A stretch of 64,000 nucleotides of DNA. Source: Yuukianura sp. NJ FZ-2021 (Eukaryota). The notes under the pieces were generated by a model, which saw only the letters and a program-made list of their open reading frames with translations, ran no database searches and was not told the DNA's origin. Position numbers and translations under genes: made by a program. Where the stretch lies: NCBI GenBank assembly GCA_046563655.1, contig JAJCTO010000009.1, positions 1,178,001-1,242,000 on the forward strand. Reading direction: 5' to 3'. Below are positions 2,171-59,949 of this stretch, piece by piece. The first letter of the stretch is position 1. Each line of letters starts with the position of its first letter.

Positions 2171-2200
2171 AAGTAGTGAAATTTTTGTATAGAAAATTCG

Positions 2201-4077: not shown

Positions 4078-4174
4078 ATGAATAAACACACTACACGGTA
4101 GAAGTTCTATTTTCAAGTTTTTTATTTTGAAAATTTGGAATCTAACGAATATACAGTCATAAAGGTGTATAATT

Positions 4175-5549: not shown

Positions 5550-5615
5550 GACTGTTAGCCTAACCGCTCCAGATGGTAAAATCTTTACGTCTTCACAGCT
5601 CAACGTCTGAAATGA

Positions 5616-5651
5616 AACTGAGAGATGACCAAGTCAACGTCGCTATTTATA
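5616..5651 (-). promoter_or_regulatory. Mirror TATA plus Inr promoter driving the minus-strand core gene
   Basis: Inverted copy of 3180-3215; ATG at 5549. Confidence 0.65.
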
Positions 5652-6457: not shown

Positions 6458-7309
6458 TTAACAAAAAATGTCAAAAGCTGAAATTTGCTTAACACCATAA
6501 AAAATAATGTTGAGAACTGTATCATCAGAGTATGACGATTGACGATACATGTTAAGATGGACCAGTCTAAAGTGCTCGTTAAAGTCATGGTTTGGAGTAC
6601 GTCTTTGGTTGTTAATTTGAATTTGTTGATGTTTGGTAACGTCCAGCACATGCTTCGAGTAGGCTAGATTTAAAATGAAAGACTCTGGCGATAAATAGCA
6701 GGCAAATCGGTGAAACACGTTTGGTTTTTTGTATGGATGAACTTTCTTGTTCGTCTTTAAACCGGCAGCCTTGCCAATTGTTTCTTTAATTCTGTTGATA
6801 CGAGTGTTGAGAATTTTATCGCTTAGCTTTCTCATGTATTCACGTTTTGTCTCATGAATGAGCTCATCCAGATACTTTTCTGTGTATGAGGTCGGAAAGC
6901 AGCCACACTTTAGAAGGGATTCCACCAGAAGAGGAATGTCCATGATTTCGATGGGAAGTGGACGACCGCTACGTATGAGAAACACTCGATTCACATTGCA
7001 TGTGATGCAGTGGATAGGAAGAAGCGGTCGCTCCAGCTTTTCTTTGAGTGTTTGAAACTCTGCTGGTGACTGCTGACGAAATAACTTTAGGAATCCATTC
7101 TTGCGGTTAGTTGCCATGATTGTTTCAAAGTGTGGTAAATCCTTCATCATTTCCCCTGCGGCTATGTATGCTTTTACTAGCTTTTCCACCACGGTTGGCA
7201 GTTCCTCTGCTGTCAGAAGAATCGAATGTCCAGAAATCTTGACTGCGATGACATCTTCCATGTCAATAAACGGCTCCGAAACCTCCATGTATGACCTGAA
7301 TCCACGCAT
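6458..7309 (-). CDS. Hypothetical protein, 283 aa (element 1)
   Basis: Uninterrupted non-repetitive ORF with a TCAGTT Inr-like motif just upstream of the ATG; no family recognised. Confidence 0.65.
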   Translation of the reverse strand: MRGFRSYMEVSEPFIDMEDVIAVKISGHSILLTAEELPTVVEKLVKAYIAAGEMMKDLPHFETIMATNRKNGFLKLFRQQSPAEFQTLKEKLERPLLPIHCITCNVNRVFLIRSGRPLPIEIMDIPLLVESLLKCGCFPTSYTEKYLDELIHETKREYMRKLSDKILNTRINRIKETIGKAAGLKTNKKVHPYKKPNVFHRFACYLSPESFILNLAYSKHVLDVTKHQQIQINNQRRTPNHDFNEHFRLVHLNMYRQSSYSDDTVLNIIFYGVKQISAFDIFC

Positions 7310-7474
7310 GCTTATAGTTTGAGACTGGTTTCTGAACTGATGATTGCTAGTCTCAAAACTCGCTGTTTAAGTAGCTACTTGGACAACGTTTGAAATGCTA
7401 TTTTGAAATTTTTTCAAAAACGTTTTTTCTAAAGAAGTGTTATTTTGAGAACTTTTCAAGAAAAAACGTTTTTC

Positions 7475-7907
7475 TTGAGAAAAGACATTTTTCCAAGAAC
7501 TCAATCCTTAACTAAAAATAAATAAAAAAATAATAACATTGACCCCAGTCTTGTATCTAAGTACTTGTAACTTCTTAACCACAAGCGTTGACCCGTGTGG
7601 TATTCGAACCAGCGGCCGTAGAGAAGTAGTTACAAGCACTTAGACACTAGGCTAGAGTCAATGTTCGAATTTTCTATACAAAAATTTCACTACTTGTTTT
7701 TTGTTGTCGACTTTTTTGTTATCGACATTTTTTGTCGACATTTTTTGTTTTCGATCTTTTTTTTTGTCGACATTTTTGTTGTCGACTTTTTTGTTGACGA
7801 CATTTTTTGTCGTTGTGAGTTTTTTCCCTCCCCAATATTGCGGCCGACTAACCCCCGTGGCTGTTCTAAAAATAGGAGGGTGCTGTTGTCCTACCTTACA
7901 TTCTACT
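7475..7907 (-). repeat. Right outer TIR of element 1 (includes second copy of Pol III-like hairpin, 7535-7665, minus strand)
   Basis: Reverse complement of 1958-2391. Confidence 0.95.
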
Positions 7908-37900: not shown

Positions 37901-40405
37901 CCATTTTTGGATAAAATTTTTGGAAAATACTTTCTAATATTTTCTACCGACTTGCACATTAAATAGATCATGTCTGAAAATTTCTGCCCAACAATAGTCC
38001 GAAATTGTATTTTAGCACAGCTCCACCATACCACAAGTGCATAAGTCTAACTACGATTTAGGTTTAACTTAGGGTTGAAACTATACAACAAGGTGTCAAA
38101 CGTTGTGAAAAATGGAATTTATGCCTTGTTACCGCTCATACCAAAATTCTTGGTATTCATCAAATAACGGTCCACTTCGTCGTAATGCATAACTGACTAA
38201 ATCACACGTTGAAAAACATGTTGTCAGCGTCCATCCTTGAGCTCAAACTAGAAGTGCCGGTGAAGTGTCAAGCATGCCTTCACTTCAGATGCAACCCATG
38301 AGTTTTCACTTTGACATCATAAATCATGACAACTCACACTTCAATCGAACTTCAGGGAAAAACCGACTATTACATTTTCTAAATCAAAATTGAACATTCA
38401 GCATTTTTGGCCATTTTTGGATAAAATTTTTGGAAAATACTTTTTAATATTTTCTACCGACTTGCACATTAAATAGATCATGTCTGAAAACTTCTGCCCA
38501 ACAATAGTCCGAAATTGTATTTTAGCACAGCTCCACCATACCACAAGTGCATAAGTCTAACTACGATTTAGGTTTAACTTAGGGTTGAAACTATACAACA
38601 AGGTGTTAAACGTTGTGAAAAATGGAATTTATGCCTTGTTACCGCTCATACCAAAATTCTTGGTATTCATCAAATAACGGTCCACTTCGTCGTAATGCAT
38701 AACTGACTAAATCACACGTTGAAAAACATGTTGTCAGCGTCCATCCTTGAGCTCAAACTAGAAGTGCCGGTGAAGTGTCAAGCATGCCTTCACTTTAGAT
38801 GCAAACCATGAGTTCTCATATTGACACCATGAATCATGACAACTCACACTTCAATCGAACTTCAGGGAAAAACCGACTATTACATTTTCTAAATCAAAAT
38901 TGAACATTCAGCATTTTTGGCCATTTTTGGATAAAATTTTTGGAAAATACTTTTTAATATTTTCTACCGACTTGCACATTAAATAGATCATGTCTGAAAA
39001 CTTCTGCCCAACAATAGTCCGAAATTGTATTTTAGCACAGCTCCACCATACCACAAGTGCATAAGTCTAACTACGATTTAGGTTTAACTTAGGGTTGAAA
39101 CTATACAACAAGGTGTCAAACGTTGTGAAAAATGGAATTTATGCCTTGTTACCGCTCATACCAAAATTCTTGGTATTCATCAAATAACGGTCCACTTCGT
39201 CGTAATGCATAACTGACTAAATCACACGTTGAAAAACATGTTGTCAGCGTCCATCCTTGAGCTCAAACTAGAAGTGCCGGTGAAGTGTCAAGCATGCCTT
39301 CACTTCAGATGCAACCCATGAGTTTTCACTTTGACACCATGAATCATGACAACTCACACTTCAATCGAACTTCAGGGAAAAACCGACTATTACATTTTCT
39401 AAATCAAAATTGAACATTCAGCATTTTTGGCCATTTTTGGATAAAATTTTTGGAAAATACTTTTTAATATTTTCTACCGACTTGCACATTAAATAGATCA
39501 TGTCTGAAAACTTCTGCCCAACAATAGTCCGAAATTGTATTTTAGCACAGCTCCACCATACCACAAGTGCATAAGTCTAACTACGATTTAGGTTTAACTT
39601 AGGGTTGAAACTATACAACAAGGTGTCAAACGTTGTGAAAAATGGAATTTATGCCTTGTTACCGCTCATACCAAAATTCTTGGTATTCATCAAATAACGG
39701 TCCACTTCGTCGTAATGCATAACTGACTAAATCACACGTTGAAAAACATGTTGTCAGCGTCCATCCTTGAGCTCAAACTAGAAGTGCCGGTGAAGTGTCA
39801 AGCATGCCTTCACTTTAGATGCAAACCATGAGTTCTCATATTGACACCATGAATCATGACAACTCACACTTCAATCGAACTTCAGGGAAAAACCGACTAT
39901 TACATTTTCTAAATCAAAATTGAACATTCAGCATTTTTGGCCATTTTTGGATAAAATTTTTGGAAAATACTTTTTAATATTTCCTACCAACTTGCACATT
40001 AAATAGATCATGTCTGAAAACTTCTGCCCAACAATAGTCCGAAATTGTATTTTAGCACAGCTCCACCATACCACAAGTGCATAAGTCTAACTACGATTTA
40101 GGTTTAACTTAGGGTTGAAACTATACAACAAGGTGTCAAACGTTGTGAAAAATGGAATTTATGCCTTGTTACCGCTCATACCAAAATTCTTGGTATTCAT
40201 CAAATAACGGTCCACTTCGTCGTAATGCATAACTGACTAAATCACACGTTGAAAAACATGTTGTCAGCGTCCATCCTTGAGCTTAAACTAGAAGTGCCGG
40301 TAAAGTGTCAAGCATGCCTTCACTTTAGATGCAAACGATGAGTTCTCATTTTGACACCATGAATCATGACAACTCACACTTCAATTGAACTTCAGTGAAA
40401 AACAG

Positions 40406-41007
40406 TGTTGCACCTGCACTTGCACAACAATACTTTCAGTACCTGCACTTGTACTTTCACTTCCACAAAACACTGGACCAAGGTCGCACGTGCACTACCT
40501 AGTTGCTAAGCACATCTAGTTGCCAAGTAGACTTAGTCACTAAGCACTCCAAGTACCAAGCTAATCCCTTCCGAGCGAAAAAACCACAAGGCCAAGTGAC
40601 CACAAGGCCAAGTGGAAGAAGATTGTAAATTTATCCAATTAGAACAACCACAGCCAGCGCCGCTAATGCGGATAGGGAAGCAAAAGTTGTTTTTCAAATT
40701 CCCAATTAACGACCACCTAGCAACCTTAATTAAGCAATTAAGCACCTTTGTATAAATAACACTCAGTCACGACTTAGAAGTAAGTCAGTACAGAAGTCGA
40801 AGAAGTAAGCAAAACTCCGAATAAAGAAAGTACGACACTTAATACGAACATAAGGACTTCATTTCACCTCCTCGCAACAATGGACTGACTGGCATGGAAC
40901 CTCGGCCGCCCGGAAGGGGTCTCTAGGGCCCTTGACCCCACGGGGCAAACATCGGTCTCCCCCGTGGGCCCTTCCTGAAATGGCGAACGCCTATTTCCGG
41001 CGTTACA
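40406..41007 (+). repeat. 5' LTR
   Basis: TGTTGC...GTTACA; TATAAATA at 40751, AATAAA at 40820. Confidence 0.95.
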
Positions 41008-41009
41008 TT

Positions 41010-41026
41010 TGGTGCATTTGCCGAGA
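41010..41026 (+). promoter_or_regulatory. Primer-binding site, tRNA-Gly(GCC)-like
   Basis: TGGTGCATTTGCCGAGA begins 2 nt after the LTR; compare the complement of the tRNA-Gly 3' end, TGGTGCATTGGCCGGGA. Confidence 0.8.
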
Positions 41027-42148
41027 TATGCGGCAGTCAGGAATGCCAGGAAAAGGAGGTCACACCAATCCTTGGACTACGTCAGACCGTCCCCGGTCAG
41101 GTTCGATATTCAGCAAATAAATTAACTTATATTTTTTTTTGAGTGTTGGAATTGGGAACAGTAACGTAGTTGTAATGTAAAGAACAATAACATTGTAAGG
41201 ACAATAACGGTTGGAATTTAACGTAAGACATAGTAGTAAGGGACTCCTGTACCTCCACACTGAAGGTAGAGCAGGTCGAGCTGATTCCTACGAAGCTACC
41301 TTCCACGGAAGTAACGGAGACCTAGTGCTATCCCCCCCTGGTGACCAAGTACCCAAATGCATCGAACAGGTACAATAGAGAAGGTGACCCTCGAAGAGGT
41401 GAAAGTCCTCTATTGTTACCACACACGCTCTGCCTAAGGTCAAAGGTCACCTCATAGGGCAGTGGCTCTAGCCAAAGGTCAAAGGTTACTGTGGTAGCCA
41501 TTGGTTCGATTGGTACACTATTGTCAGCATTATTGTTAACGAAAGGTAGGAAGAACGAGTGCTAGGGTTTTATTTGTTAAAACCTATTTGTCACTTAAAG
41601 AACAAACTGATATAACGCAGGTTCACGCGTTTTGTTCGCATATTTCCACTTAACTGATTTGCAGGCGCTATTTGCTATTTTTGTGTTGAATTTCTGCAAG
41701 TTATGCTTTGGTTCAAATTTTACTACTCACGATTTGACAATTTGATGTGGAGCTTACTGAAAGGGTGGGTGAGAACTAAGCTTAAGTTAGTCGAAAATTT
41801 GGAAATTTCCCAACTATTGTCTACCTTGGAACTTTGCTGTCAGATGTAGATACTATGTGTTGTTAGACTTTCATTTCCTGGATATGCAGTAGACGTCAGT
41901 TAGTTTAATTCTGACAGTACTACACGTTCGCCAGTGTGCAGGCGTCTAGTCTATTTTTAACTTTAAATTTTTATGGAGGAGATTTCCCATAGACTTTGTG
42001 AAATTTGAAAGGCATTCCTTTTAACGAAAAGCTTTAGGATCATACAGCGTAGACGAGTCATTTTTTTTGTGTTTATTAAATAATTTCCTTTAGTCAATAA
42101 TTATTATTTAATAATTGGGAAAGCCGAATTATGTTTATTGTATTCAAG

Positions 42149-42755
42149 TTAAAGCGTTAAATCAGACTCCGTCTCAGAGTCACTTGAGAGCACGATAGTC
42201 TCGATAGGATCAGAGGTAGATGCCGACAAGGCTTCCTCACCTTCGGCAACAGTATCACTCAGGGCGATGGTTCGCTCCTCCTCAATCCATCGTTGAACGT
42301 TGGCAGTCTCCGCCCCAACTTCATTGAGTCGAAGAAAATCCTCCAGACTCTGGCTGTGTATCAAGGCGCACAGCCTCCGTCGTCTGTCGTCCACCGACGT
42401 CCACGGCCGATCTCCCGCGAACAGGACTCGCTCAGTTTGAAAGGCACACAGATGTCGCCGCACTTCCAACTTGATTAGATTAACGAGGGCAGTCATCTCC
42501 ATTGTGATGGGATTCCCCGCCCTTTGCATCAGTAGCGCAGCAAACGCGGCCCAGTTATGAGTCAAAAACGGCCGTTCTGCTAATAACTGACTTAAAAAGA
42601 AGTCATCCTGCAATTAGATAAAGGAGAAGAGATAGGTAATTTCTCTTATAATTAGGCTGAGTATATTTACTTCTTACCAAGTCTCCTTGAGTGCCGTGAG
42701 CCCAAGGCACCTGCTGACTCACACCGGGAGTAACCGGAAATGTACGAGAAGCCAT
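42149..42755 (-). CDS. Antisense spliced hypothetical protein (exons 42755-42678 and 42607-42149, ~178 aa) with C-terminal SIM-like motif
   Basis: Phase-0 70-nt intron GTAAGA...pyrimidine tract...TTGCAG; AATAAA at 42134-42139 (minus); C-terminus IETIVLSSDSETESD. Confidence 0.6.
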
Positions 42756-43299
42756 TGTTCTTTGACCGTTGTCCGAGGGTATAAACTTACAACTGCGTGA
42801 CGGGAATTGAATCAACTACAGAAAGTGTCTGGACTTTTAGGTGCGGCGTAATCAACCATAGTCACCGCGACAGTTGTTTCTAAAATTTAGCATGTGCCCA
42901 TTGTCCACAAGTAAAATTAACGAAATCGGGTTTTGTTAAGAAAACCGGAGGCCAAGGGAAGGTTTCTCCCGCTTTTTGGGACACTATGAGGAAGCGAATG
43001 CCACTCAAATTCTTTAATTCATACAACCACAAAGATAATCATACCACCGTGATTCCTGGTCATTAGTGGTACCATAGCAGATACTTTTGTGAACTTTGCT
43101 TTCTTTTAAAGTACTTGGACAGTTGAATGTGATGGATATCATGATTTCTGTTAAATCCGATTTTACTGCCGAATCAGTAGCATTCTGGAAAACTGCTCGA
43201 ATCCTGCTCAGGGACTTTGTTTGTCCTGTAGAAATACTAATTCCTGTGGGAGAACCACAGAGGACTATTTGAGATTTTTCAGAGAAATTGCAGAAGAAG

Positions 43300-44300
43300 A
43301 AGAAGAATAAAGAAGATTAAAGACGGTCGAAGCCACGGGGACGATTTCGCGAAATAAAGATTTCCGACAACGAATTTCGAAATAAAGATTTTTCTCTTTT
43401 GAAATAAAGATTTCCAAAATAAAGATTTTCCGAAACAAGGCTTTTGAGAAACAAAAATGAAGATTTTCTGAAATAAAGATTTTCGGAATGAAGCTCTTCC
43501 ATGATGAAGTTCTTCCACAATGAAGCTCTTGCGAGATGAAGCTCTTCCAAGGTGAAGCATCCACAAGACGAAGCTTCAGAAGATGAAGCCTTTTACAGAT
43601 GTAGCTTCCACAGATGAAGCTCTTACAGATGAAGCTTCTACAGATGAAGCCCATACAGATGAAGCTTCCACAGATGAAGCTCTTACAGATGAAGCTCTTA
43701 CAGATGAAGCTCTTACAGATGAAGCTCTTACAGATGAAGCTTCTACAGATGAAGCCCATACAGATGAAGCTTCCACAGATGAAGCCCTTACAGATGAAGC
43801 TTCCACAGATGAAGCTCTTACAGATGAAGCTTCTACAGATGAAGCCCATACAGATGAAGCTTCCACAGATGAAGCCCTTACAGATGAAGCTTCCACAGAT
43901 GACGTCCTTACAGATGCAGTTTCTACAGACGAAGCCCTTACAGATGTAGCGTCTCCAAGATGAAGCTCTTCCAAGATGAAGATTTTATCTTCCATGAGAT
44001 GAAGCCCTTAACCGATGACGCTTCCACAAGATGAAGCCTTACTAGATGAAGCTTCCACAAGATGAAGCCCTTACCGGATGAAGCTTTCATTAAATGAAGC
44101 TTCCACGTGATGAACTTTTCATAAGATGAAGATTGTCCGAAATGAAGAATTTCCGAAACGCAGATTTTACCTAATGAAGATTTTACGGAAAGAAGATTTT
44201 CCGAAATGAAGATTTTACAGGAAGAGGATTTTCCGAAAAACGAAGATTTTACGAAATGCAGCTTACGAGACGAAGATTTTACGAAGTGAAGACTTTACGA
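43300..44300 (+). repeat. 15-bp tandem repeat (acagatgaagctctt) core ~43590-43950 with degenerate GAAGATTTT flanks
   Basis: Obvious 15-bp periodicity; pentapeptide pseudo-ORFs in several frames. Confidence 0.92.
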
Positions 44301-45652
44301 GCCGAACAGTTTACGAGAATTTGTCGATAAGACAACGCAAGTATCGGCCTAACATGAATCACTTGGACATGAGGGATGGGACCGAAAACAGAAATATCCT
44401 GTGAAAGGACGGGCCAGGAGAATTGGAACTCCTAGTAACGGTGTATTAATTGACCGGGCTGTAGTCTAAATCCCAAAGAGGATGACGCTATGTCCTACAG
44501 CTACTCATCAAATACCAAGTTAGGAAAAGGTAAAACAAAAGGGAGGTAAAGGTTCTAATAATGAAACTCACACTGCTACTAGTGGGGAGGACCCACGAAA
44601 GTTATGGTACCAAAGGCGCGCAATACCGGTGTAATCGGATCCGACAGTACTGTAGCGCATGCGCAAATCGTTCAGAACAGACAAACATATGGCCTGGGTT
44701 ACATGAGAATTCTCTCTGATATCAGTGCTTCAGCAAAAGGGGCCAGCCGAGCCTCAAGGTGCTTTGCCACGTTCCGCTTATGCTTTCTGTATTTGTCCTA
44801 CTAATCAAACTTCTGATCTCGAGTGGGAAATGGTGAAACCAATGTAACATGCCGAGTAAATTGTTACTTAAAATCGGTTAATTAAGCAATTGTTGCCTAA
44901 GTAAAGTAGTTAGATAACGTGCTTAAGCTTATCAGAAGAATTTCCTAGAAAGAAAGAAAAGAAAGAAAGAAGAGAACACTTTCCGCTTTTGTGATAAGAT
45001 CAGAAATTACTAAGAAAATTACTTAAATTACTTAGAAGAAAACTAATGTCATTAGCACTGTACCTTACGCTCCAATGAGCGTGGTCATGCACGTGCCCAA
45101 GTCATACACAGTCATACGGATCTGTTTCAATTCGCACCCACCGAAGCTGCTCCGGGAGTAGCAGCGATTTAAGTTGGGAAGGGCCAGGCGTCGCCCGAAG
45201 TTTTCTAACATGACCTGCGCCACCACCTCCAACCTCTAAGTACGACAATTACGAGAGAAACCGGAGAAATTATGAGAAGAAAACACGAAGGGAGTAAATT
45301 CTGAACCTTGGCGATCCACGCAGGTCAACGGTCAAACTAGATGACCCCGTACACCGTTCTCATGATTAAAGGCAACCCGGAAGGAAAATTGACGCTGCCC
45401 CGTCACCCCACCGAGTGATGTTCCAATTAAGAACCACCGAGAGAGATACGAGATATCAGCTCCACAGATTATTTAATTCAGCGCTGCCGCAGCCAGCGCC
45501 GGTAATGTGGTTTTGTGCACCGAAATTGCTAATCAACCACCTTCAATTAACGCCCTCAGCCGAGCAATTAAGAGTCCAGTTAAATACCGAGCTCCCTCCA
45601 ATTCTCTGGAGCCAGTCAACGAAAGTCAGCAAGCCAAAACACTCATCACATC

Positions 45653-46855
45653 ATGGAAGCAGTCTCGTTCGAAGTACAAGATTTGGCCCAACTAGCTTAC
45701 GGCCGAACGCAAATAAGAAACCTCACGGACGGTGTCAGAGCAATCCGACCAGCCAGGCCAAGCGCCCCGAACTACGACATTGACACAGCCCTCGAGTCTC
45801 TCTGGCCGGAAGGCTGGACCATACCGGAGTGGATTCCAGAAGTGCTCCAAACAAAAGAAAAAGTTGCAGAAAACGTCAGGCTAGCCGCTCTAACTTCGCC
45901 AGTTGCGTTCGCATGTTTCGAGTGGCCACACTCATACCTTGGGACAATTCACCGCCTTCTGATCGTGTCAAAGATCAACGCCTTTGTCATAGACCCTACT
46001 AACCCGGACACGCATGAGCCGCTACAAAACTTGTTCAGATCCACGGCGGTTGTTAAGTTATGTTACCGTGGAGGAGACCAACAGAAATGGATTGAGAGGG
46101 ACTTTGGAGTCATCCCGACGGGAGTCGTCGATATCGAAACTATACGCCTACACACCAGCCATCTCCCGTGCTACGCGTCGCCCATACAAATTCGGAACGA
46201 ATTCAGTTCGACATTTGATCTGCCCCTGGGATTTCCACACGCTGTTCCACCTCTAAATGATGCATCAATGAAGGCCGTGGTGGTAACCTTGGTGAAACTC
46301 TGGGAAGATATCTCACAGCAACTACTCAAGCTGCACACCCCAGAACTGCGGACCTTGATCCAGAATATGCTAGACAGCACACACGAACAAACTGAAGAAC
46401 AGTTCCGGCTGACTCACTTCTTTACGCATGCCCGTGTACTCAACGTCAAAGATAGGAGGATCCGAACAAGCCTCATTTCCGTTGCCCGCCAGCTGAATCT
46501 GCCAACTACCGTATTCTCTCAAGACTACGCGATTTGGAAAACAAAAACGGAGGCGGAATTTCTGCAAGGACTGTTGCAGAAAGTCCGAACCTTGCCAAGA
46601 CCGGCCGGCATGGACCCAGTGCAGCACGCATTGATAGTTCCCCGTCTCGTCGCATGGTGGCGTGATTCCCGAATTCAGCCAGAAGCCGTCACGAGGCAGG
46701 CTGTAGCAAAACGAAGGGCACCCACGCCTCCCGATGTGTCACCGGCGAGCGACTCTGAACCATCGCACAATCCGAGAACCGCGGAGTTGGAGAAACGACT
46801 ACGAGCAGTTGAACAACAACCCCTGGACCTCAGCTGCCCTAGAGCCGCGGATTAA
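45653..46855 (+). CDS. 400-aa protein with degenerate DnaQ-like (WRN/EXD/Egalitarian/Mut-7 type) 3'-5' exonuclease fold and C-terminal PLDLS motif
   Basis: PVAFACFEW...HRLLIVS..NAFVID...LQNLFRSTAVVKLCY...IERDFGVIPTGVVDIETI follows the pattern VGFDxE...LLQIA..VYLFD...LKELLED..ILKV.H...L...FGI....VFDTQ; ExoI Asp absent. Confidence 0.7.
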   Translation: MEAVSFEVQDLAQLAYGRTQIRNLTDGVRAIRPARPSAPNYDIDTALESLWPEGWTIPEWIPEVLQTKEKVAENVRLAALTSPVAFACFEWPHSYLGTIHRLLIVSKINAFVIDPTNPDTHEPLQNLFRSTAVVKLCYRGGDQQKWIERDFGVIPTGVVDIETIRLHTSHLPCYASPIQIRNEFSSTFDLPLGFPHAVPPLNDASMKAVVVTLVKLWEDISQQLLKLHTPELRTLIQNMLDSTHEQTEEQFRLTHFFTHARVLNVKDRRIRTSLISVARQLNLPTTVFSQDYAIWKTKTEAEFLQGLLQKVRTLPRPAGMDPVQHALIVPRLVAWWRDSRIQPEAVTRQAVAKRRAPTPPDVSPASDSEPSHNPRTAELEKRLRAVEQQPLDLSCPRAAD

Positions 46856-46882
46856 GTTTTCCGAACTTTTGTCGAGGACGAC

Positions 46883-46904
46883 AAAAAGAATAGGCGTTGG
46901 AGAG
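46883..46904 (+). promoter_or_regulatory. Polypurine tract
   Basis: AAAAAGAATAGGCGTTGGAGAG immediately before the 3' LTR. Confidence 0.7.
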
Positions 46905-47507
46905 TGTTGCACCTGCACTTGCACAACAATACTTTCAGTACCTGCACTTGTACTTTCACTTCCACAAAACACTGGACCAAGGTCGCACGTGCACTACCTA
47001 GTTGCTAAGCACATCTAGTTGCCAAGTAGACTTAGTCACTAAGCACACCAAGTACCAGGCTAATCCCTTCCGAGCGAAAAAACCACAAGGCCAAGTGACC
47101 ACAAGGCCAAGTGGAAGAAGATTGTAAATTTATCCAATTAGCACTACCGCAGCCAGCGCCGCTAATGCGGTTAGGGAAGCAAAAGTTGTTTTTCAAAATT
47201 CCCAATTAACGACCACCTAGCAACCTTAATTAAGCAATTAAGCACCTCTGTATAAATAACATTCAGTCACGACTTAGAAGTAAGTCAGTACAGAAGTCGA
47301 AGAAGTAAGCAAAACTCCGAATAAAGAAAGTACGACACTTAATACGAACATAAGGACTTCATTTCACCTCCTCGCAACAATGGACTGACTGGCATGGAAC
47401 CTCGGCCGCCCGGAAGGGGTCTCTAGGGCCCTTGACCCCACGGGGCAAACATCGGTCTCCCCCGTGGGCCCTTCCTGAAATGGCGAACGCCTATTTCCGG
47501 CGTTACA
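46905..47507 (+). repeat. 3' LTR
   Basis: Direct repeat of 40406-41007 with about 9 differences. Confidence 0.95.
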
Positions 47508-50500
47508 ACAGACTATTACATTTTCTAAATCAAAATTGAACATTCGGCATTTTTGGCCATTTTTGGATGAAATTTTTGGAAAATACTTTTTTATATTTCC
47601 TACCGCCTTGCACATTAATTAGATCATGTCTGAAAACTTCTGCCCAACAATAGTCCGAAATTGTATTTTAGCACAGCTCCACCATACCATAAGTGCATAA
47701 GTCTAACTACGATTTAGGTTTAACTTAGGGTTGAAACTATACAACAAGGTGTTAAACGTTGTGAAAAATGGAATTTATGCGTTTTTACCGCTTATACAAA
47801 AATTCTTGGTATTCATCAAATAACGGTCCACTTCGTCGTAGTGCATAACTGACTAAATCACACGTTGAAAAACATGTTGTGAGCCTCCATCCTTGAGCTT
47901 AAACTAGAAGTGCCGGTAAAGTGTCAAGCATGCCTTCACTTTAGATGCAAACGATGAGTTCTCATATTGACACCATGAATCATGATGACTCACACTTCGA
48001 TGGAACTTCAGGGAAAAACCGACTATTACATTTTCTAAATCAAAATTGAACATTCAGCATTTTTGGCCATTTTTGGATAGAATTTTTGGAAAATTCTTTT
48101 TTATATTTCCTACCAACTTGCACATTAAATAGATCATGTCTGAAAACTTCTGCCAAACAAAAGTCCGAAATTGTATTTTAGCACAGCTCCACCATACCAC
48201 AAGTGCATAAGTCTAACTATTTACGATTTAGGTTTAACTTAGGGTTGAAACTATACAACAAGGTGTTAAACGTTCTGAAAAATGGAATTTATGCCTTTTT
48301 ACCGCTTATACCAAAAATTCTTGGTATTCATCAAATAACGGTCCACTTCGTCGTAAGTGCATAACTGACTAAATCACACGTTGAAAAACATGTTGTCAGC
48401 CTCCATCCTTGAGCTTCAAACTAGAAGTGCCGGTAAAGTGTCAAGCATGCCTTCACTTTAGATGCAAACCGATGAGTTCTCATTTTGACACCATGAATCA
48501 TGACAACTCACACTTCAATTGGAACTTCAGTGAAAAACCGACTATTACATTTTCTAAATCAAAATTGAACATTCGGCAGCATTTTTGGCCATTTTTGGAT
48601 GAAATTTTTGGAAAATACTTTTTTATATTTCCTACCGCCTTGCACATTAAATAGATCATGTCTGAAAACTTCTGCCCAACAATAGTCCGAAATTGTATTT
48701 TAGCACAGCTCCACCATACCACAAGTGCATAAGTCTAACTACGATTTAGGTTTAACTTAGGGTTGAAACTATACAACAAGGTGTTAAACGTTCTGAAAAA
48801 TGGAATTTATGCCTTGTTACCGCTTATACAAAAATTCTTGGTATTCATCAAATAACGGTCCACTTCGTCGTAATGCATAACTGACTAAATCACACGTTGA
48901 AAAACATGTTGTCAGCCTCCATCCTTGAGCTTAAACTAGAAGTGCCGGTAAAGTGTCAAGCATGCCTTCACTTTAGATGCAAACCGATGAGTTCTCATTT
49001 TGACACCATGAATCATGACAACTCACACTTCAATGGAACTTCAGGGAAAAACCGACTATTACATTTTCTAAATCAAAATTGAACATTCAGCATTTTTGGC
49101 CATTTTTGGATGAAATTTTTGGAAAATACTTTTTTATATTTCCTACCCAACTTGCACATTAAATTAGATCATGTCTGAAAACTTCTGCCCAACAATAGTC
49201 CGAAATTGTATTTTAGCACAGCTCCACCATACCACAAGTGCATAAGTCTAACTACGATTTAGGTTTAACTTAGGGTTGAAACTATACAACAAGGTGTTAA
49301 ACGTTGTGAAAAATGGAATTTATGCCTTGTTACCGCTTATACAAAAATTCTTGGTATTCATCAAATAACGGTCCACTTCGTCGTAATGCATAACTGACTA
49401 AATCACACGTTGAAAAACATGTTGTCAGCCTCCATCCTTGAGCTTAAACTAGAAGTGCCGGTGAAGTGTCAAGCATGCCTTCACTTTAGATGCAAACCGA
49501 TGAGTTCTCATTTTGACACCATGAAATCATGACAACTCACACTTCGATGGAACTTCAGGGAAAAACCGACTATTACATTTTCTAAATCAAAATTGAACAT
49601 TCAGCATTTTTGGCCATTTTTGGATAAAATTTTTGGAAAATACTTTTTAATATTTTCTACCGACTTGCACATTAAATAGATCATGTCTGAAAACTTCTGC
49701 CCAACAATAGTCCGAAATTGTATTTTAGCACAGCTCCACCATACCACAAGTGCATAAGTCTAACTATTTACGATTTAGGTTTAACTTAGGGTTGAAACTA
49801 TACAACAAGGTGTTAAACGTTCTGAAAAATGGAATTTATGCCTTTTTACCGCTCATACCAAAATTCTTGGTATTCATCAAATAACGGTCCACTTCGTCGT
49901 AAGTGCATAACTGACTAAATCACACGTTGAAAAACATGTTGTCAGCCTCCATCCTTGAGCTCAAACTAGAAGTGCCGGTAAAGTGTCAAGCATGCCTTCA
50001 CTTTAGATGCAAACGATGAGTTCTCATTTTGACACCATGAATCATGACAACTCACACTTCAATTGAACTTCAGTGAAAAACAGACTATTACATTTTCTAA
50101 ATCAAAATTGAACATTCAGCATTTTTGGCCATTTTTGGATGAAATTTTTGGAAAATACTTTTTTATATTTCCTACCGCCTTGCACATTAATTAGATCATG
50201 TCTGAAAACTTCTGCCCAACAATAGTCCGAAATTGTATTTTAGCACAGCTCCACCATACCATAAGTGCATAAGTCTAACTACGATTTAGGTTTAACTTAG
50301 GGTTGAAACTATACAACAAGGTGTTAAACGTTCTGAAAAATGGAATTTATGCCTTTTTACCGCTTATACAAAAATTCTTGGTATTCATCAAATAACGGTC
50401 CACTTCGTCGTAGTGCATAACTGACTAAATCACACGTTGAAAAACATGTTGTCAGCCTCCATTCTTGAGCTTAAACTAGAAGTGCCGGTAAAGTGTCAAG

Positions 50501-53626: not shown

Positions 53627-54815
53627 AGCTATACTGGGTGGTAGGGGAATGGCACTTTTTTCAAAATGGCCGCCGTCCTTATCAGCTATTGCATCTGCAT
53701 ATGACGTTTTTTGCTCATGCGCAAAAACGTTTTTGCGCATGACGTCACCCCCCCACTTCCGCACCCCCCCACCCCCCCCCCCACTATATATCCCTTCCCC
53801 CTATATCCACCCCCCCCCCCACGTGACCCCGCCCCCCCTTACAAAAAAAAATACAACAATAGAAATTTTGGCAACAATGTAAATTTGACAACAATGGATT
53901 TTTTTTTGAAATTTTCAAGTAAAAAATATTTTGAAAAAAAAAATAATTTTTTTGAAATTTTAAAATTGAAAAAAAAATTAAATTGAAAATTCAAATTTCT
54001 AAAAAACAAAAAGCAACTTTCCCCAGATTACCCCAACTTTAAATGTCAAGGTCACGCACACTTTTTCAAGGTCACTCCAATTTTTTTTTCAAGGTCATGC
54101 GCGCCATTTGCATTGGCATGTGCATTTGCGTCAGGTCATGCGCGCTGATTTGCAATTTCGTGTAAATTGTTCAATGTCATTCAACTTTTTTTCAAGGTCA
54201 AGCGAGCATTTTGAAATTGTCAAGTCCCGGGAGCCCTTTTCTGGGATCCCGGGACCAGGAAGATCAAGTATGGCCCATGGGCAGTATATTCGGCTGGTCA
54301 GAGGATTAGTGGGGTACCACTCGGCCACTGCCAAAAGAAACCGCAAACCACTTCCGGTTAACCTGTTGGAACAAACCGCAAACCACTTCCGGTCAACTTG
54401 CCCGCGCATATGCACGTACGAATCCATTTGAATTTTCACTTGTGTTTGCTAAAAACACCAAGGTCAAAGTTCAAGCCGAGTGACGCGCCACTGTCAGACG
54501 CTTCACTCGGCAATAGACCCGGTCACGCTCGGGGGCGTGGCTAGCCGCCCGACTCTTGAGCCAATCAGTATTGAGCATTTCAAAAGTGGGCGTGGCTCGA
54601 GGAAATGGAGACATTTGATTGGTCGAGACTTGCCGCTACACCCGGGGGTGTGGCCAACTCTGGCCAATGTACGTTTGCAATTTCAAAAAGGGGCGTGGCC
54701 TCAGAAAATGGAGACATTTGATTGGTCGACAAAACTTGCCACACATTGGGCCCGCCCTCAAGCCATAGTGTTGTCATTTCCTGCTTAAACTCAGACAAGT
54801 CGCCCGGGCGGACTG
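53627..54815 (+). repeat. Left TIR of element 3
   Basis: Reverse complement of 58766-59949; identical 102-aa and 72-aa pseudo-ORFs on opposite strands. Confidence 0.95.
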
Positions 54816-54940
54816 TTTATACACAAAATGGTCATGCTTACTTGTGGGTGGTTACATTGCGACTGTCCCGTCTTCACCCCTTGCCACGCGACCCCTGCAT
54901 TTTTTTTGCAGTTTTTTACGGTGACGTCCTTGGTTGTGCC

Positions 54941-54976
54941 TATATAAGACCGTCAAGTTGCCCCAAACGGCTCAGT
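54941..54976 (+). promoter_or_regulatory. TATA plus Inr for the minor capsid gene
   Basis: TATATAAG at 54941, TCAGT at 54972, ATG at 55068. Confidence 0.65.
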
Positions 54977-55067
54977 GTTTCACTAGCTTCTGCGTCGATA
55001 ACATTACCTTCTCCTAAAAAGTTCAAGTGAAAGTGTTAATTTGTTATTGTTCAAATCGCCGTCAGCA

Positions 55068-56139
55068 ATGGCCGTCGTTGTTAAACTCAGTTCGCGATAC
55101 ATTATCGTGGATAGCGCTTTAAACAGCAGGTTTTACCCAGAAAATAAACCAAACGAGTTTCGTGCCAATTTGGATCCTGTGCTTGATGGCTGGAAGCAAC
55201 CACTGGAGGTTGCCATTTCTGGAATGCACTACACTCCAGCACCCAAAACCCAACGAAACATTTTTGGCCACAGTGAGGGTGACAATGTCATAAACGTAAC
55301 CGAGCACTTGGAGGTGACGGTTACAATCTCAAAAATGGATGGAATAATAAAGTTTTTCGGTCATGTCAACAAGGAATTGAAGAAATTTTGACCGAAAAAT
55401 TGTCATATCATACACAAACAAGGTCTTTTCACTTACCAACGACGAAAAAGACCATTTGGTTACCATGACAGCCGAGTATGCCCAAGCGTTTGGCTTTGAT
55501 ACCAACACGTTCCCAAATGGAGTGACGCATGGCCATGAATATACCGAAGCTGTTTTTGACGCAATTGATCCAACAATTAACATGACGCTCCACATTTTCC
55601 AAGACAAGGTCAACTTGGCAACCGTGGTAGAACCAAAAGAAAAGACGGTGGGAGGCCTAATTCTAGCCATGAACGCCGCCTTGGCTACATTCCAAATTAC
55701 ATTCAAGTACTCTGAGGAAGAGGCTGTACTCTAATACACCCGAGAATCTACAGCCAATTACATTACGACCCTCTCGCCACTTTTGGAAAAAATATTTGGA
55801 CTGCCAATGGGAGCCGCATTCAAGGGATTTAGCCAAACGAATCCAGCCAAGGCCGAAATTGACCTTGGAGTGACGTCAAAACATCTCCTTGTCGTGTGCG
55901 ATCTTGCGGAATATACCCAGTTTGGAGACAAGGTGCTGCCGTTGATTGGAATATTCCCACAAGGCGATCAGGATGGCAAGCCAGTCGACTTGCAAGTCAA
56001 TGTACCGCGTTATTTTGCGGTAAAAGGACAGTCGATGATCAATTCCATTTACGTTCAACTTTTGGACGAAAATCTGGCACCAATTCCTGAAGCACACAGC
56101 GCAACCCAACTTGTTCTTCACGTCAGAAAATCCACCTAA
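55068..56139 (+). pseudogene. Polinton minor capsid protein (penton, single jelly roll); frameshift ~55388 and in-frame TAA 55732-55734
   Basis: N-term YIIVDSALNSRFYPENKPNEFRANL...LEVAISGMHY; C-term LLVVCDLAEYTQFGDKVLPLIGIF...PRYFAV...INSIYVQLLDENLAPI...LVLHVRK. Both match Polinton mCP motifs. Confidence 0.85.
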
Positions 56140-56325
56140 ATTGTCCAAAAACCAGTTATTAACGGCCACAAAAGACAAAATCTGTTCAGTTGACGTCTGA
56201 CTTGCGACCAAGCAACACGAAAACAGCGCAAAACAGTGTAAAATTTACACCAAAACCCTTAAAAACGTCGTCAGTATCAACTTTGTACTCGTCGAAGCAA
56301 CATCTAGTGCATTTTTTGTGTAAAA

Positions 56326-56815
56326 ATGGAAGTTGACGAACCAGGAAACTCTGATTTTAGCAACAATAGTGACAGTGTGACGCCAGAAAATGGCGAAAAC
56401 AAGTGCGACAATGCAAGTTTAGCCACAAAAACGATATCATCGCCCGCTATTGTTCAAAAAATGTCCGCGGAGTTGCCCAAAAAGAGGGCCAAGAAGCGAT
56501 CGCGGCCCAAAAAAGTGTCAAATTTGAAGCAAAATTTACCCAAAAGTGGGTCCAGCAGTACAGATTCAGACGAAAATCTTTGCAACAATTGCAGAAAACT
56601 GCAAATTTCTAAAGACAATAGCAAAAAGTGGGTCCAGCAGTACAGATTCAGACGAAAATCTTTGCAACAATTGCAGAAAACTGCAAATTTCTAAAGACAA
56701 TAGCAGAAAACCAAAGAAATCTACTAAAAGTGCCCGAAAAAGGCATAAGATTGTTGCAAAATTGCAAAATTTGGCGCAAAAAGCTATAAAAGGGAGCCTG
56801 TTTTACAACAATTAG
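56326..56815 (+). pseudogene. Small Lys/Arg/Ser-rich protein, disrupted by an 82-bp tandem duplication
   Basis: PKKRAKKRSRPKK and RKPKKSTKSARKRHK; removing one copy of 56542-56623 restores a single frame. Confidence 0.55.
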
Positions 56816-56960
56816 TCAGTCTGCGTCTGAATTTCGACGAGTAAACACGTGTCTAGTGCGTAGTGCTACCCCAAAGTTTACACGTTAACCCTTGAAAATA
56901 GTGCTCAGTCGTTATTTGGAAACCGTCAAAGCAACATCTCGTGCGTGTTTTTGTGCTAAA

Positions 56961-58270
56961 ATGGAGGTTAATGTGCCAGTGAATTCGAAATTGGTCACCA
57001 CAAGTGCCAAATTTGACCTATTTTCAAAACCAACCACGGATGTGTCGTTCATTTTGGGCAATTATCTAGTAGTGAAACCATTTTCACCATCGACAGACCC
57101 TAATCCAATCTACTTTCGAGTGGAACAGCCGGCACATGGTTACTTGGACCTGTCGGATTCTTTTTAAAACTAGTATTTTCAATTAAAAAAAGTGATGGGA
57201 CGCCACTCACCGATGCAGACCAAATTGCGCCTGAAAATTTATTTTTTCATGCGTTCATTGAGGATTTCAAAGTTTTGGTCAACAATTGCCAAGTAGTTGC
57301 TCAAGGATACCGAGCATACTCGTATGAAGCCTGGATGCTCACTCAACTCTTTAACGGCATTGGAACCAAATGCAGCACATTGTCAAAAGTGGGTTATTAT
57401 GCCGGAGATGTCATGGACACCTACGACGACACAAACCCGAGTTACAAGGCGCGATTAAACTTGGCAAAAAATAGTCAAACGTTTGAAATGATTGGTCGCC
57501 CGTTTGTCGGCCTATTTACGACCAAAAAGTTATTCCCGCACAACACTCAATTCTATTTTGAAATTAAAAAGAGCGATGCATCCTTTTGCTTGCGAGGACC
57601 GGCCACTACCACCAAATACAAAATTACAGTCGAGTCGGCCGAGTATTATATTCGCCAGGTGAATCCCAGCGAAAAAATAGTGACTCAGATCCGGCAAGGG
57701 TTTGCAAAAAACAAAGTGGCCAACTATTCATACGATCAGGCCCACATGCGTTTAGAATATGTGTCGAAAACCTCAGTTCGGTTGATTTGACAAATGCCTA
57801 CCACAGTACTATGCACCCAAAACTTCTTTTAGTTGGCATTTTGGAACTAGAAGTTTACGAAGATAAAAGTTGAAAAGTCGCCATTCAACTTTAAACCCCA
57901 CGGTGTTAGCCGTCTGTTGCTAAAATTTGAGCAAAAACCGTTGGTCTATCAAGAAATGATTTTCAAAGACAAAAATTACATGCTTGCCTATCACAATTTG
58001 TGCAAGTTGGTTTCTCGTCAGACTGAAGGAAATGACATTTCCTACGACAAGTTTGTAAACGGAAATGCAATCTTTGCATTTGACGTCCAGGATTTGTGGA
58101 CTGACGGGTACAATGCGACCAGATCTGGACAATACGGGCTGGAAATTGATTTTGAAACCCCGACGACGAAGGATTTGGTGGTTCTCATCATCGGAGTCGA
58201 AGACGAAACTTTACAAATTGATGGAAATAGAATTACTGGACTTGCATCCAACAAAAAAATATTCTTTTAA
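56961..58270 (+). pseudogene. Polinton major capsid protein (double jelly roll); three homopolymer frameshifts (~57163, ~57770, ~57867)
   Basis: FDLFSKPTTDVSF...KPFSP...PIYFRV...YLDLSDSF; APENLFFHAF; YSYEAW; PFNFKPHGV; ISYDKFVNGNAIFAFDV; LEIDFETP...LVVLII...LQIDGNR. TATAAAA at ~56784 and TCAGT at ~56816. Confidence 0.9.
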
Positions 58271-58690
58271 AAATAACTTTATTTTTAATCTTCATTAGCC
58301 CTGTCTCAAGTCTTTCTTGTTGTAAATTTTTCAACATTTGAAAAATAAACTAATCTCCTCATTCAAAAAAAAACATGGTGTCTTTTATAAATAAAAGTAA
58401 AAAAACGAAAAAAAAAACCAAAAAAAAAAAGAGAAAAAAAAAGAGAAAAAAAGGACAAAAACAAACAAAAACTGTATTCAGTTTTGGTTTTCTGCAAAGC
58501 TGTTGGTGGTGGCACAAATTGCCGGTTGTTTTATACGGTTGTTCAAAGTCAGGTTTATGCCGTACGCTTTTCTCCAAACACGTTTCCGTAATATAATTTA
58601 ACATAGTGTTGTAAGCGTAAGTAACTCGGGCATGCCAGTGACAAACGCCAAGCCTGCGTTTGTATTGTTCCGAAAACGCTTGAACAACAT

Positions 58691-58775
58691 AAAAATTATT
58701 TGGGGGCAGATTGAATCGAACTCACGGATCCTACCATCAGATCTAATCCAAGTGGAGGCTCTAACCAGTCCGCCC
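58691..58775 (-). ncRNA. Putative Pol III tRNA-like small RNA at the inner edge of the right TIR
   Basis: Minus strand GGGCGGACTGGTTAGAGC (A-box/D-arm-like)...GAGTTCGATTC (B-box)...AATCTGCCC (pairs with the 5' end), then AAATAATTTTT. Confidence 0.5.
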
Positions 58776-59949
58776 GGGCGACTTGTCTGAGTTTAAGCAG
58801 GAAATGACAACACTATGGCTTGAGGGCGGGCCCAATGTGTGGCAAGTTTTGTCGACCAATCAAATGTCTCCATTTTCTGAGGCCACGCCCCTTTTTGAAA
58901 TTGCAAACGTACATTGGCCAGAGTTGGCCACACCCCCGGGTGTAGCGGCAAGTCTCGACCAATCAAATGTCTCCATTTCCTCGAGCCACGCCCACTTTTG
59001 AAATGCTCAATACTGATTGGCTCAAGAGTCGGGCGGCTAGCCACGCCCCCGAGCGTGACCGGGTCTATTGCCGAGTGAAGCGTCTGACAGTGGCGCGTCA
59101 CTCGGCTTGAACTTTGACCTTGGTGTTTTTAGCAAACACAAGTGAAAATTCAAATGGATTCGTACGTGCATATGCGCGGGCAAGTTGACCGGAAGTGGTT
59201 TGCGGTTTGTTCCAACAGGTTAACCGGAAGTGGTTTGCGGTTTCTTTTGGCAGTGGCCGAGTGGTACCCCACTAATCCTCTGACCAGCCGAATATACTGC
59301 CCATGGGCCATACTTGATCTTCCTGGTCCCGGGATCCCAGAAAAGGGCTCCCGGGACTTGACAATTTCAAAATGCTCGCTTGACCTTGAAAAAAGTTGAA
59401 TGACATTGAACAATTTACACGAAATTGCAAATCAGCGCGCATGACCTGACGCAAATGCACATGCCAATGCAAATGGCGCGCATGACCTTGAAAAAAATTG
59501 GAGTGACCTTGAAAAAGTGTGCGTGACCTTGACATTTAAAGTTGGGGTAATCTGGGGAAAGTTGCTTTTTGTTTTTTAGAAATTTGAATTTTCAATTTAA
59601 TTTTTTTTTCAATTTTAAAATTTCAAAAAAATTATTTTTTTTTCAAAATATTTTTTACTTTAAAAATTTCAAAAAAATTCCATTGTTGTCAAATTTACAT
59701 TGTTGCCAAAATTTCTATTGTTGTATTTTTTTTTGTAAGGGGGGGCGGGGTCACGTGGGGGGGGGGGGTGGATATAGGGGGAAGGGATATATAGTGGGGG
59801 GGGGTGGGGGGGTGCGGAAGTGGGGGGGGTGACGTCATGCGCAAAACGTTTTTGCGCATGAGCAAAAAACGTCATATGCAGATGCAATAGCTGATAAGGA
59901 CGGCGGCCATTTTGAAAAAAGTGCCATTCCCCTACCACTCAGTATAGCT
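58766..59949 (-). repeat. Right TIR of element 3
   Basis: Reverse complement of 53627-54815. Confidence 0.95.

What the first reader, a model, noticed from the sequence alone, without database searches (positions are those of the whole stretch)
45653..46855. Catalytically degenerate DEDDy exonuclease fold plus CtBP-binding PLDLS motif encoded by a retroelement
Seen: intact 400-aa ORF with WRN/EXD-like motif order but ACFE in place of DxE, a basic KRR patch, and PLDLS near the C-terminus. Known: EXD1, Egalitarian and Mut-7/Nibbler family domains act in piRNA/small-RNA or RNA transport pathways, some as inactive RNA binders; PxDLS recruits CtBP, as in adenovirus E1A. Inference: a captured host domain used as a silencing antagonist or RNA chaperone.
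Basis: partly seen in the sequence, partly recalled or inferred. Interest (0 to 1): 0.72.

Follow-up and report, generated by a model that had tools for sequence, protein, structure and literature searches.

The report
Retroelement-borne dead RRP6-like nuclease
A young, helper-dependent jumping gene carries an intact, conserved gene for a catalytically dead relative of the cell's RNA-degrading enzyme RRP6, which may shield the element's RNA from that enzyme, but the proposed CtBP-binding motif is found in this copy only and is probably chance.

Summary
The 400-aa ORF is real. It is the last gene of a 7.1-kb non-autonomous LTR element (LTRs 98.7% alike, 4-bp target duplication) inserted in satellite DNA. 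The DnaQ/DEDDy fold is confirmed, but the closest family is RRP6/EXOSC10, not EXD1, Egalitarian, Nibbler or WRN (profile E 6e-9; Z 16.6 against 10.9-13.2). ExoI Asp, ExoII Asp and ExoIII Tyr/Asp are replaced in this copy, and ExoII reads Gln in all 11 intact copies. Relatives are the terminal ORF of env-bearing Gypsy elements (MMP-gag-pol-env-pseudoRRP6). They are under purifying selection (dN/dS 0.08-0.18), yet the ORF is swapped as divergent alleles: 51% identical between elements whose pol is 97% identical. Autonomous copies have a splice acceptor before the ATG; this element has a duplicated piece of LTR promoter instead. PLDLS occurs in 1 of 14 copies and is not supported. Retroelement-borne DEDDy ORFs are known from rotifers, with intact active sites; a dead RRP6-type version was not found in the papers searched. 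Best guess (40%): a nuclear RNA-binding decoy that protects element RNA from the exosome. No function or expression is shown.

The parts
40402..40405 (+). 4-bp target-site duplication, left copy (right copy 47508-47511), in the 510-bp satellite
40406..41007 (+). 5' LTR, 602 bp, TG...CA
   Evidence: first ~380 bp 93-96% identical to the LTRs of autonomous elements at C5:2.07M and C12:0.21M
41010..41025 (+). Primer-binding site, identical in 3 autonomous and 2 other non-autonomous elements; the priming tRNA was not identified
   Evidence: uninformative
41156..41534 (+). Leader stretch shared with autonomous elements (80-86% nt); candidate packaging region (inferred)
42152..42613 (-). Second, antisense frame (154 codons stop to stop) behind a splice-acceptor-like site; conserved in 3 other copies; no known family; first exon not found
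   Evidence: dN/dS 0.10-0.22, p<=3e-9
43404..44263 (.). Short-unit tandem repeat region shared with the C11 and C1 non-autonomous copies
45129..45195 (+). Remnant of the 3' tail of pol of the autonomous family (about 80% nt)
45469..45640 (+). Degenerate duplicate of the LTR promoter region (47130-47315), with a TATA-like box at 45580 and an initiator-like site about 30 nt downstream; candidate internal promoter of the ORF
   Evidence: alignment score 78 against a maximum of 35 in 300 shuffles; same arrangement in the C11 and C1 copies
45653..46855 (+). Intact 400-aa ORF: RRP6-like pseudo-exonuclease
45818..46402 (+). DEDDy-type EXO domain (residues ~56-250); catalytic positions read A87, Q143, S205, V209
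46445..46675 (+). Four-helix bundle (residues ~265-341) in the place of RRP6's HRDC domain; identity as HRDC inconclusive
   Evidence: covered by the whole-model RRP6 match; alone no HRDC match
46709..46717 (+). KRR basic patch; aligns with an R/H-x(2-5)-PY motif present in 9 of 14 copies but lacking the Tyr here
46772..46813 (+). Short C-terminal amphipathic helix (residues 374-387), matching a heptad-like helix in relatives
46820..46834 (+). PLDLS; unique to this copy
46881..46904 (+). Purine-rich tract before the 3' LTR
46905..47507 (+). 3' LTR, 603 bp; 8 mismatches in 602 aligned bases against the 5' LTR

Best explanation
The ORF is an accessory gene of an env-bearing Ty3/Gypsy lineage, derived from RRP6, the nuclear exosome's 3'-5' exoribonuclease. 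It has lost its metal-binding residues and RRP6's N-terminal PMC2NT domain. Shown: fold, loss of catalytic residues, purifying selection, position in the elements, allele exchange. Inferred: in autonomous elements it is made from a spliced subgenomic RNA; in this non-autonomous element, from a duplicated LTR promoter; the element moves with the enzymes of the autonomous family. Proposed mechanism (inferred, untested): the protein enters the nucleus, binds RNA 3' ends or RRP6 docking sites without cutting, and so protects element transcripts from exosome decay, acting in trans like a natural dominant-negative RRP6.
For: RRP6 is the top hit by profile (E 6e-9; Egalitarian 0.2, EXD2 0.58), Foldseek (1.6e-7) and VIA-align (Z 16.6, rmsd 5.3, 297 aligned; EXD1 Z 11.6). 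The profile scores the host RRP6 exon 46.5 bits and every other frame, including EXD1-type exons, <=10.6 among 1751 frames. ExoII is Gln in 11 of 11 intact copies and in P0001, which suggests a constrained pocket rather than decay (inference). dN/dS is 0.08-0.18 among intact copies and 0.30 (p 4e-14) for the window copy against its closest, broken relative. A splice acceptor lies 15-30 nt before the ATG in 4 of 4 small-type copies that follow env. PY-type motifs are in 9 of 14 tails. It is the fastest-diverging ORF of the lineage and is exchanged as alleles, as expected of a host-facing protein (inference). In Drosophila S2 cells RRP6 silences retrotransposon transcripts, and catalytically inactive RRP6 acts as a dominant negative that raises them (PMC4577213, passages read).
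Against: No expression, RNA-binding or localisation data. The dominant-negative mutants of PMC4577213 are full-length. This protein has no PMC2NT hit (the host gene has one) and no long C-terminal region, so it lacks RRP6's known contacts to Rrp47 and the exosome core (from own knowledge and abstract starts). The DW loop and ExoIII region are remodelled and poorly predicted (pLDDT<50 at 172-200), the protein is not basic (pI 6.9), and the HRDC assignment is inconclusive. The window copy lacks the Tyr of the PY motif. The ORF is broken in the two closest non-autonomous elements (C11, C1) and in the C3 copies, so it is not needed for every insertion.
Confidence: 0.4

Rival explanations
1. Rev/CERV-like factor: the dead RRP6 fold is a sequence-specific adaptor that binds the element's unspliced RNA and promotes its export, stability or packaging, without touching host decay.
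For: Spliced subgenomic expression, PY-type motif and C-terminal heptad helix parallel CERV of Cer1, a spliced nuclear protein needed for gRNA export (PMC10309623, abstract only). Egalitarian is a structural relative used as an RNA adaptor.
Against: Alleles only 51% identical sit on otherwise 91-98% identical elements, and a distant Gypsy (pol 24-28% identical) carries the gene upstream of gag. Both fit a cis-specific partner poorly. A non-autonomous element could borrow such a factor from its helper.
Confidence: 0.25
2. Element-versus-element weapon: divergent alleles restrict competing elements (for example the env-less Gypsy families with intact RRP6-like nucleases, or the helper), and the non-autonomous element keeps a self-promoted allele for that purpose.
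For: Allele exchange; independent promoter in the non-autonomous family; at least 21 of 26 other retroelement loci examined carry an intact-motif RRP6-like ORF in the same genome.
Against: No interaction data; high divergence has other explanations; copy numbers are low.
Confidence: 0.12
3. Passenger: the gene works in autonomous elements, but the window copy is kept only because it lies next to the 3' LTR and the insertion is recent.
For: It is the 3'-most ORF; LTRs differ by only 8 of 602 bases; most copies in deleted elements are broken; dN/dS on the window's branch pair is the highest seen (0.30); PY motif degraded.
Against: The window allele is 42-46% identical to every intact relative, yet open over 400 codons and under purifying selection against its nearest relative. 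A promoter-like duplicate is conserved in 3 non-autonomous copies that differ by about 19% in that region.
Confidence: 0.13
4. CtBP-recruiting corepressor adaptor: PLDLS brings CtBP to chromatin or RNA.
For: Exact PLDLS in a low-confidence, probably disordered tail; chance rate 0.01 for PxDLS.
Against: 1 of 14 copies; closest copy reads HLELS; the motif sits where relatives end their heptad helix. One paper search gave no precedent in a transposon.
Confidence: 0.07
5. Still an active nuclease, using a rearranged site.
For: E90 and, in relatives, an Asp one position off the ExoIII site remain; the region is poorly modelled.
Against: ExoI Asp and ExoII Asp are absent in every copy aligned and the ExoIII positions read S/V in this copy, in two alignments.
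Confidence: 0.03

Closest known systems
RRP6/EXOSC10 (and RNase D) catalytic module
   Same: EXO fold with RRP6-type N-terminal extension, SYxG and WxxRDFG stretches, followed by a helical bundle in the HRDC position.
   Different: Catalytic D, D and Y/D replaced; no PMC2NT; no long C-terminal region; HRDC not recognisable on its own; intronless and element-borne; 11-15% structural identity.
DEDDy ORF3 of bdelloid rotifer LTR retrotransposons Juno and Vesta, and of Athena/Terminon elements (PMC5408684, passages read; PMC6431247, passages read)
   Same: Extra 3' ORF with an RNase D-like DEDDy domain in Gypsy-type elements, shared between unrelated retroelements.
   Different: The rotifer ORFs keep their catalytic residues, replace env and lack coiled-coil segments. 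Here the domain is dead, follows env, has a heptad helix, and is also carried by a non-autonomous element with its own promoter-like piece. Kinship to the rotifer ORFs was not tested.
Intact-motif RRP6-like ORFs of env-less Gypsy elements in the same genome
   Same: RRP6-type EXO as the ORF after pol.
   Different: They keep DEDDy, have a detectable HRDC (E 0.002-0.003) and mostly a zinc knuckle, and sit on a separate RT clade (33-38% identical). Whether the dead family descends from them is unresolved.
EXD1, Egalitarian, Nibbler/Mut-7, WRN exonuclease domains
   Same: DEDDy fold; precedent for non-catalytic RNA binding (EXD1 and Maelstrom as stated in PMC5408684).
   Different: Lower scores (Z 10.9-13.2, EXO only); host EXD1-type exons score <=10.6 bits.
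CERV of C. elegans Cer1 (PMC10309623, abstract only)
   Same: Spliced, nuclear accessory protein of a Gypsy element acting on element RNA: a functional analogy.
   Different: No sequence or fold relation tested; the abstract calls CERV a novel protein.
Large non-autonomous LTR derivatives (LARD-like; PMC6431247 passage) and plant Retand elements (PMC11963269, abstract only)
   Same: LTRs, PBS and PPT without gag-pol; antisense ORF and tandem repeats inside.
   Different: Here a host-derived pseudo-enzyme gene is kept intact behind an LTR-derived promoter copy.

Membership tests
DEDDy/DnaQ-like exonuclease fold | RNase H-like EXO fold with ExoI-III motif order | tested here: met
   (Z 16.6, rmsd 5.3, 297 aligned)
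Active DEDDy exonuclease | D,E (ExoI), D (ExoII), Y and D (ExoIII) | tested here: not met
   A87, gap or E90, Q143, S205, V209 in two alignments
RRP6/EXOSC10 | EXO domain closest to RRP6 among DEDDy families | tested here: met
   the tree alone does not resolve it
RRP6/EXOSC10 | HRDC domain after EXO | tested here: inconclusive
   whole-model match runs to residue 349; the isolated bundle gives best Z 6.6 to unrelated folds and profile scores at shuffle level
RRP6/EXOSC10 | N-terminal PMC2NT domain | tested here: not met
   no Pfam hit; only about 55 residues precede EXO and the model aligns from RRP6 residue 179; host gene has it
RRP6/EXOSC10 | Association with the nuclear exosome | not testable with these tools
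   needs co-purification
EXD1 / Egalitarian / Mut-7-Nibbler | EXO domain closer to these than to RRP6 | tested here: not met
   (host exons are split by introns, so their scores are lower bounds)
CtBP-binding PxDLS proteins | PxDLS motif in an accessible region | tested here: met
CtBP-binding PxDLS proteins | Motif conserved among homologues | tested here: not met
   1 of 14; HLELS in the closest copy
CtBP-binding PxDLS proteins | Binds CtBP | not tested
   no complex prediction or experiment run
Non-autonomous Ty3/Gypsy LTR element | Paired TG...CA LTRs, PBS, PPT, short target duplication | tested here: met
Non-autonomous Ty3/Gypsy LTR element | No gag, pol or env; cis signals shared with an autonomous Gypsy family | tested here: met
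   Pfam calls for the autonomous ORFs
Rotifer Juno/Vesta DEDDy ORF3 | Intact catalytic residues | tested here: not met
   against the statement in PMC5408684
Rotifer Juno/Vesta DEDDy ORF3 | Clusters with rotifer TE DEDDy ORFs in a tree | not tested
   rotifer sequences were not fetched

The most novel reading that the evidence does not exclude
A retroelement-encoded antagonist of the nuclear RNA exosome: a natural dominant-negative RRP6 mimic, traded as divergent alleles between Gypsy lineages, and carried by a helper-dependent satellite element that replaced spliced expression with its own LTR-derived promoter so as to supply the protein in trans.
Probability: 0.25. Interest if true: 0.85.

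Novelty: new variant of a known kind. Interest (0 to 1): 0.57.

Why it matters
RRP6 degrades retrotransposon RNA in flies, and dead RRP6 raises it (PMC4577213). A retroelement that keeps a dead RRP6 under selection would be a ready-made candidate for a counter-defence against nuclear RNA surveillance in an animal, testable by expressing one natural gene. The genome also holds intact-motif RRP6-like cargo on another Gypsy clade, so active and dead forms can be compared side by side. If the protein is only an RNA adaptor, it is still a new pseudo-enzyme accessory gene of env-bearing retroelements.

Tried and rejected
Word-index homolog searches found nothing with the protein, with alignment A1, or with A2 among longer proteins; weak evidence, since one search also missed cellular RRP6. 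phmmer over 1.84 billion representatives gave 1 hit (P0001, E 9.5e-4, 27% identical, unnamed). Scans of viral and metagenome contigs with A1 confirmed none of 27 and 105 pattern matches. A DNA-virus or Maverick origin, suggested by dUTPase neighbours and by giant-virus clusters in the ESM Atlas, was rejected: the dUTPase-bearing loci at C5:0.55M, C8:6.24M and C5:0.11M are larger Gypsy elements (the C10:0.96M context stayed unclear), and viral structure hits are weaker than RRP6. HRDC identity: no match by Pfam, hhalign, own profile, Foldseek, VIA-align or Atlas. The EXO tree cannot name the donor: dead ORFs form one clade (99/98) next to the intact TE ORFs (93/77), but AU tests reject neither a link to host RRP6 (p 0.35) nor to bacterial RNase D (p 0.46). 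For that tree 65 eukaryotic and 65 bacterial segments were thinned to 16 and 7. The priming tRNA was not found. The antisense frame has no Pfam or PDB match. No complex prediction was run. Literature: 10 searches listed no paper on a dead RRP6-like retroelement ORF; only the top 3-20 rows of each were seen and subscription journals are mostly missing. PMC13524379 has no occurrence of 'exonuclease' or 'metalloprote' in its main text; its supplements and those of PMC5408684 were not read and may list such ORFs. PMC4131045 passages were irrelevant.

Full report
Observation. The frame 45653-46855 is open for 400 codons. ACFE (87-90), KRR (353) and PLDLS (390-394) are there. The window is G000:C9:1178001-1242000 of a 98.7-Mb eukaryotic assembly. 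From about 16 kb on it is a 510-bp satellite with two insertions. The host looks like an invertebrate (inference from the baculovirus-F-type env, and arthropod clusters in the Atlas); I did not identify it.

The element. The ORF is the last gene of a 7.1-kb insertion, 40406-47507. It has TG...CA LTRs of 602 and 603 bp with 8 mismatches, a 4-bp target duplication, a primer-binding site and a purine tract. It has no gag, pol or env; only 67 nt of the pol tail remain. The first ~380 bp of its LTR are 93-96% identical to two autonomous elements, and its PBS is identical to that of three. It is therefore a young non-autonomous derivative that presumably moves with their enzymes (inference). Two further non-autonomous elements at C11 and C1 share its interior at 76-90% but have broken ORFs.

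The family. A protein search of the genome gave 20 matches from 23 candidates, 11 of them intact full-length ORFs including the window's. Four are the terminal ORF of 12.8-14 kb elements with LTRs 98-100% alike and the order matrix metalloproteinase, gag, pol, F-type env, this ORF. One more follows an env piece next to an assembly gap (C4). Three lie in larger elements of the same RT clade that add dUTPase and unknown ORFs. One (C10:0.96M) has the dUTPase neighbour but an unclear context. One sits upstream of gag in a distant Gypsy element whose pol is 24-28% identical. Outside the genome only one unnamed metagenome fragment was found (P0001, E 9.5e-4); it falls in the same clade and has the same lost residues.

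What the domain is. The window protein alone has no PF01612 hit; relatives do. A profile of the 11 copies hits RRP6 first in the PDB (E 6e-9; RNase D 4e-4, Egalitarian 0.2, EXD2 0.58). The AlphaFold model (mean pLDDT 67.5) matches RRP6 first by Foldseek (1.6e-7) and VIA-align (human RRP6 Z 16.6, rmsd 5.3, 297 aligned over residues 11-349; Egalitarian 13.2, Nibbler 12.0, EXD1 11.6, WRN 10.9, over EXO only). The host has an intron-split RRP6 gene with PMC2NT, EXO and HRDC exons. Its EXO exon scores 46.5 bits against the profile; no other frame among 1751, including EXD1-type exons, exceeds 10.6 (split exons give lower bounds). The helical bundle at 265-341 occupies the HRDC position, but folded alone it matches no HRDC, and profile scores are at shuffle level, so HRDC is inconclusive. 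There is no PMC2NT.

Catalysis. In two alignments the window copy reads A87 (ExoI Asp), Q143 (ExoII Asp), S205 and V209 (ExoIII Tyr and Asp), and lacks the DW loop; a one-residue gap leaves the ExoI Glu ambiguous. ExoII is Gln in 11 of 11 intact copies. By contrast, 21 of 26 other retroelement loci found with PF01612 keep both ExoI and ExoIII motifs by pattern (two more do by eye). Those are env-less gag-pol-RRP6 elements on a separate RT clade. The EXO tree makes the dead ORFs one clade (99/98) but cannot say whether they came from those intact ORFs or directly from the host gene.

Selection and exchange. dN/dS is 0.08-0.18 for unsaturated pairs of intact copies, and 0.30 (p 4e-14) between the window copy and its closest relative, a broken copy at C3:5.33M. 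The C7 element is 97-98% identical to three others in pol, 91-96% in env and 94-97% in the metalloproteinase, but only 51-52% in this ORF; the nucleotide match ends just after env. Between subfamilies it is the most diverged ORF (21-27%). The gene thus travels as a cassette of old, divergent alleles.

Expression signals (sequence only). Four of four small-type copies that follow env have a branch-point-like and pyrimidine-rich acceptor 15-30 nt before the ATG. The window element lacks it. Instead, 45469-45640 is a degenerate copy of the LTR promoter region (score 78 against at most 35 in 300 shuffles), with TATA-like and initiator-like sites also present in the C11 and C1 copies. The initiator consensus is recalled, not from a call.

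Motifs. PxDLS/T is in 1 of 14 copies; the closest relative reads HLELS. The KRR patch aligns with an R/H-x(2-5)-PY motif found in 9 of 14 tails (shuffle frequency 0.06-0.19 each; the copies are related, so these are not independent). That is the PY-NLS core given in the abstract start of PMC2408616. The window copy has Thr in place of the Tyr. A heptad-like helix ends most copies.

Mechanism. Shown: dead RRP6-type fold, selection, position, exchange. Inferred: expression route and mobilisation by a helper. Proposed (40%): a nuclear decoy that binds RNA ends or RRP6 sites and protects element RNA. PMC4577213 (passages read) reports that RRP6 silences retrotransposon transcripts in Drosophila cells and that inactive RRP6 is dominant negative. 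Against: those mutants are full-length, while this protein lacks PMC2NT and the exosome-binding tail; its RNA pocket is remodelled; and the ORF is broken in most deleted elements. Rivals: a CERV/Rev-like adaptor (25%; PMC10309623, abstract only), passenger in this copy (13%), inter-element restriction (12%), CtBP adaptor (7%), residual nuclease (3%).

Comparison and novelty. DEDDy ORFs in LTR retrotransposons are known from bdelloid rotifers, with intact catalytic residues and in place of env (PMC5408684, passages), and from Terminons (PMC6431247, passages); Dada DNA transposons appeared in the search listing only (PMC3706591). Ten searches listed no dead RRP6-type cargo; the limits are given under Tried and rejected. 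Earlier AI notes on this genome reached the same reading for the autonomous element; they are not independent evidence, and they supplied the CERV and errantivirus leads. Verdict: new variant of a known kind; the fold claim holds, the donor family is corrected to RRP6, and the CtBP claim is dropped.

Noticed in passing
window 42152-42613 (-): Antisense frame behind a splice-acceptor-like site, under purifying selection (dN/dS 0.10-0.22) in 4 copies of the non-autonomous family; no Pfam or PDB match; first exon not found.
   Followed up: partly
G000, loci L057-L082 (e.g. C4:8.27M, C5:1.67M, C9:0.76M): At least 21 of 26 loci hold intact-motif RRP6-like ORFs (EXO, weak HRDC, mostly a zinc knuckle) after pol in env-less Gypsy elements.
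   Followed up: partly
L042-L043 (C8:6.228-6.245M), L039-L041, L054-L055: Larger env-bearing Gypsy elements with a matrixin/hemopexin gene before gag, up to three unknown ORFs between pol and env, and dUTPase before the dead RRP6-like ORF.
   Followed up: partly
L050-L052 (C10:1.058-1.076M): A distant Gypsy element of 18.7 kb between 851-bp LTRs carries the dead RRP6-like ORF upstream of gag, 43% identical to that of another lineage: gene transfer between lineages, or a nested piece.
   Followed up: partly
L032 (C3:5.3325-5.3343M) and L262-L263 (C3:5.0586-5.0608M): Two separate deleted elements in which the metalloproteinase gene is followed directly by the RRP6-like gene, both broken.
   Followed up: no
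window 53628-59949: Second insertion in the satellite, 6.3 kb with long terminal inverted repeats; a 228-codon frame at 57104-57790 resembles a Polinton/Maverick capsid piece by recall only, with no Pfam support.
   Followed up: no
window 1958-7907: Third inverted-repeat-bounded insertion of about 6 kb in a different 541-bp tandem array, with unassigned frames of 340 and 302 codons.
   Followed up: no
window 15963-64000; L038, L050, L052: Homogeneous 510-bp satellite (about 70 units here); arrays of 506-510 bp period also flank relatives at C5:0.55M and C10:1.06M, so these elements may collect in satellite DNA.
   Followed up: no
L100, L101, L103, L104: Several tandem, intron-split EXD1-type DEDDy genes in the host (type assigned by recalled motifs), suggesting a local expansion.
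   Followed up: no
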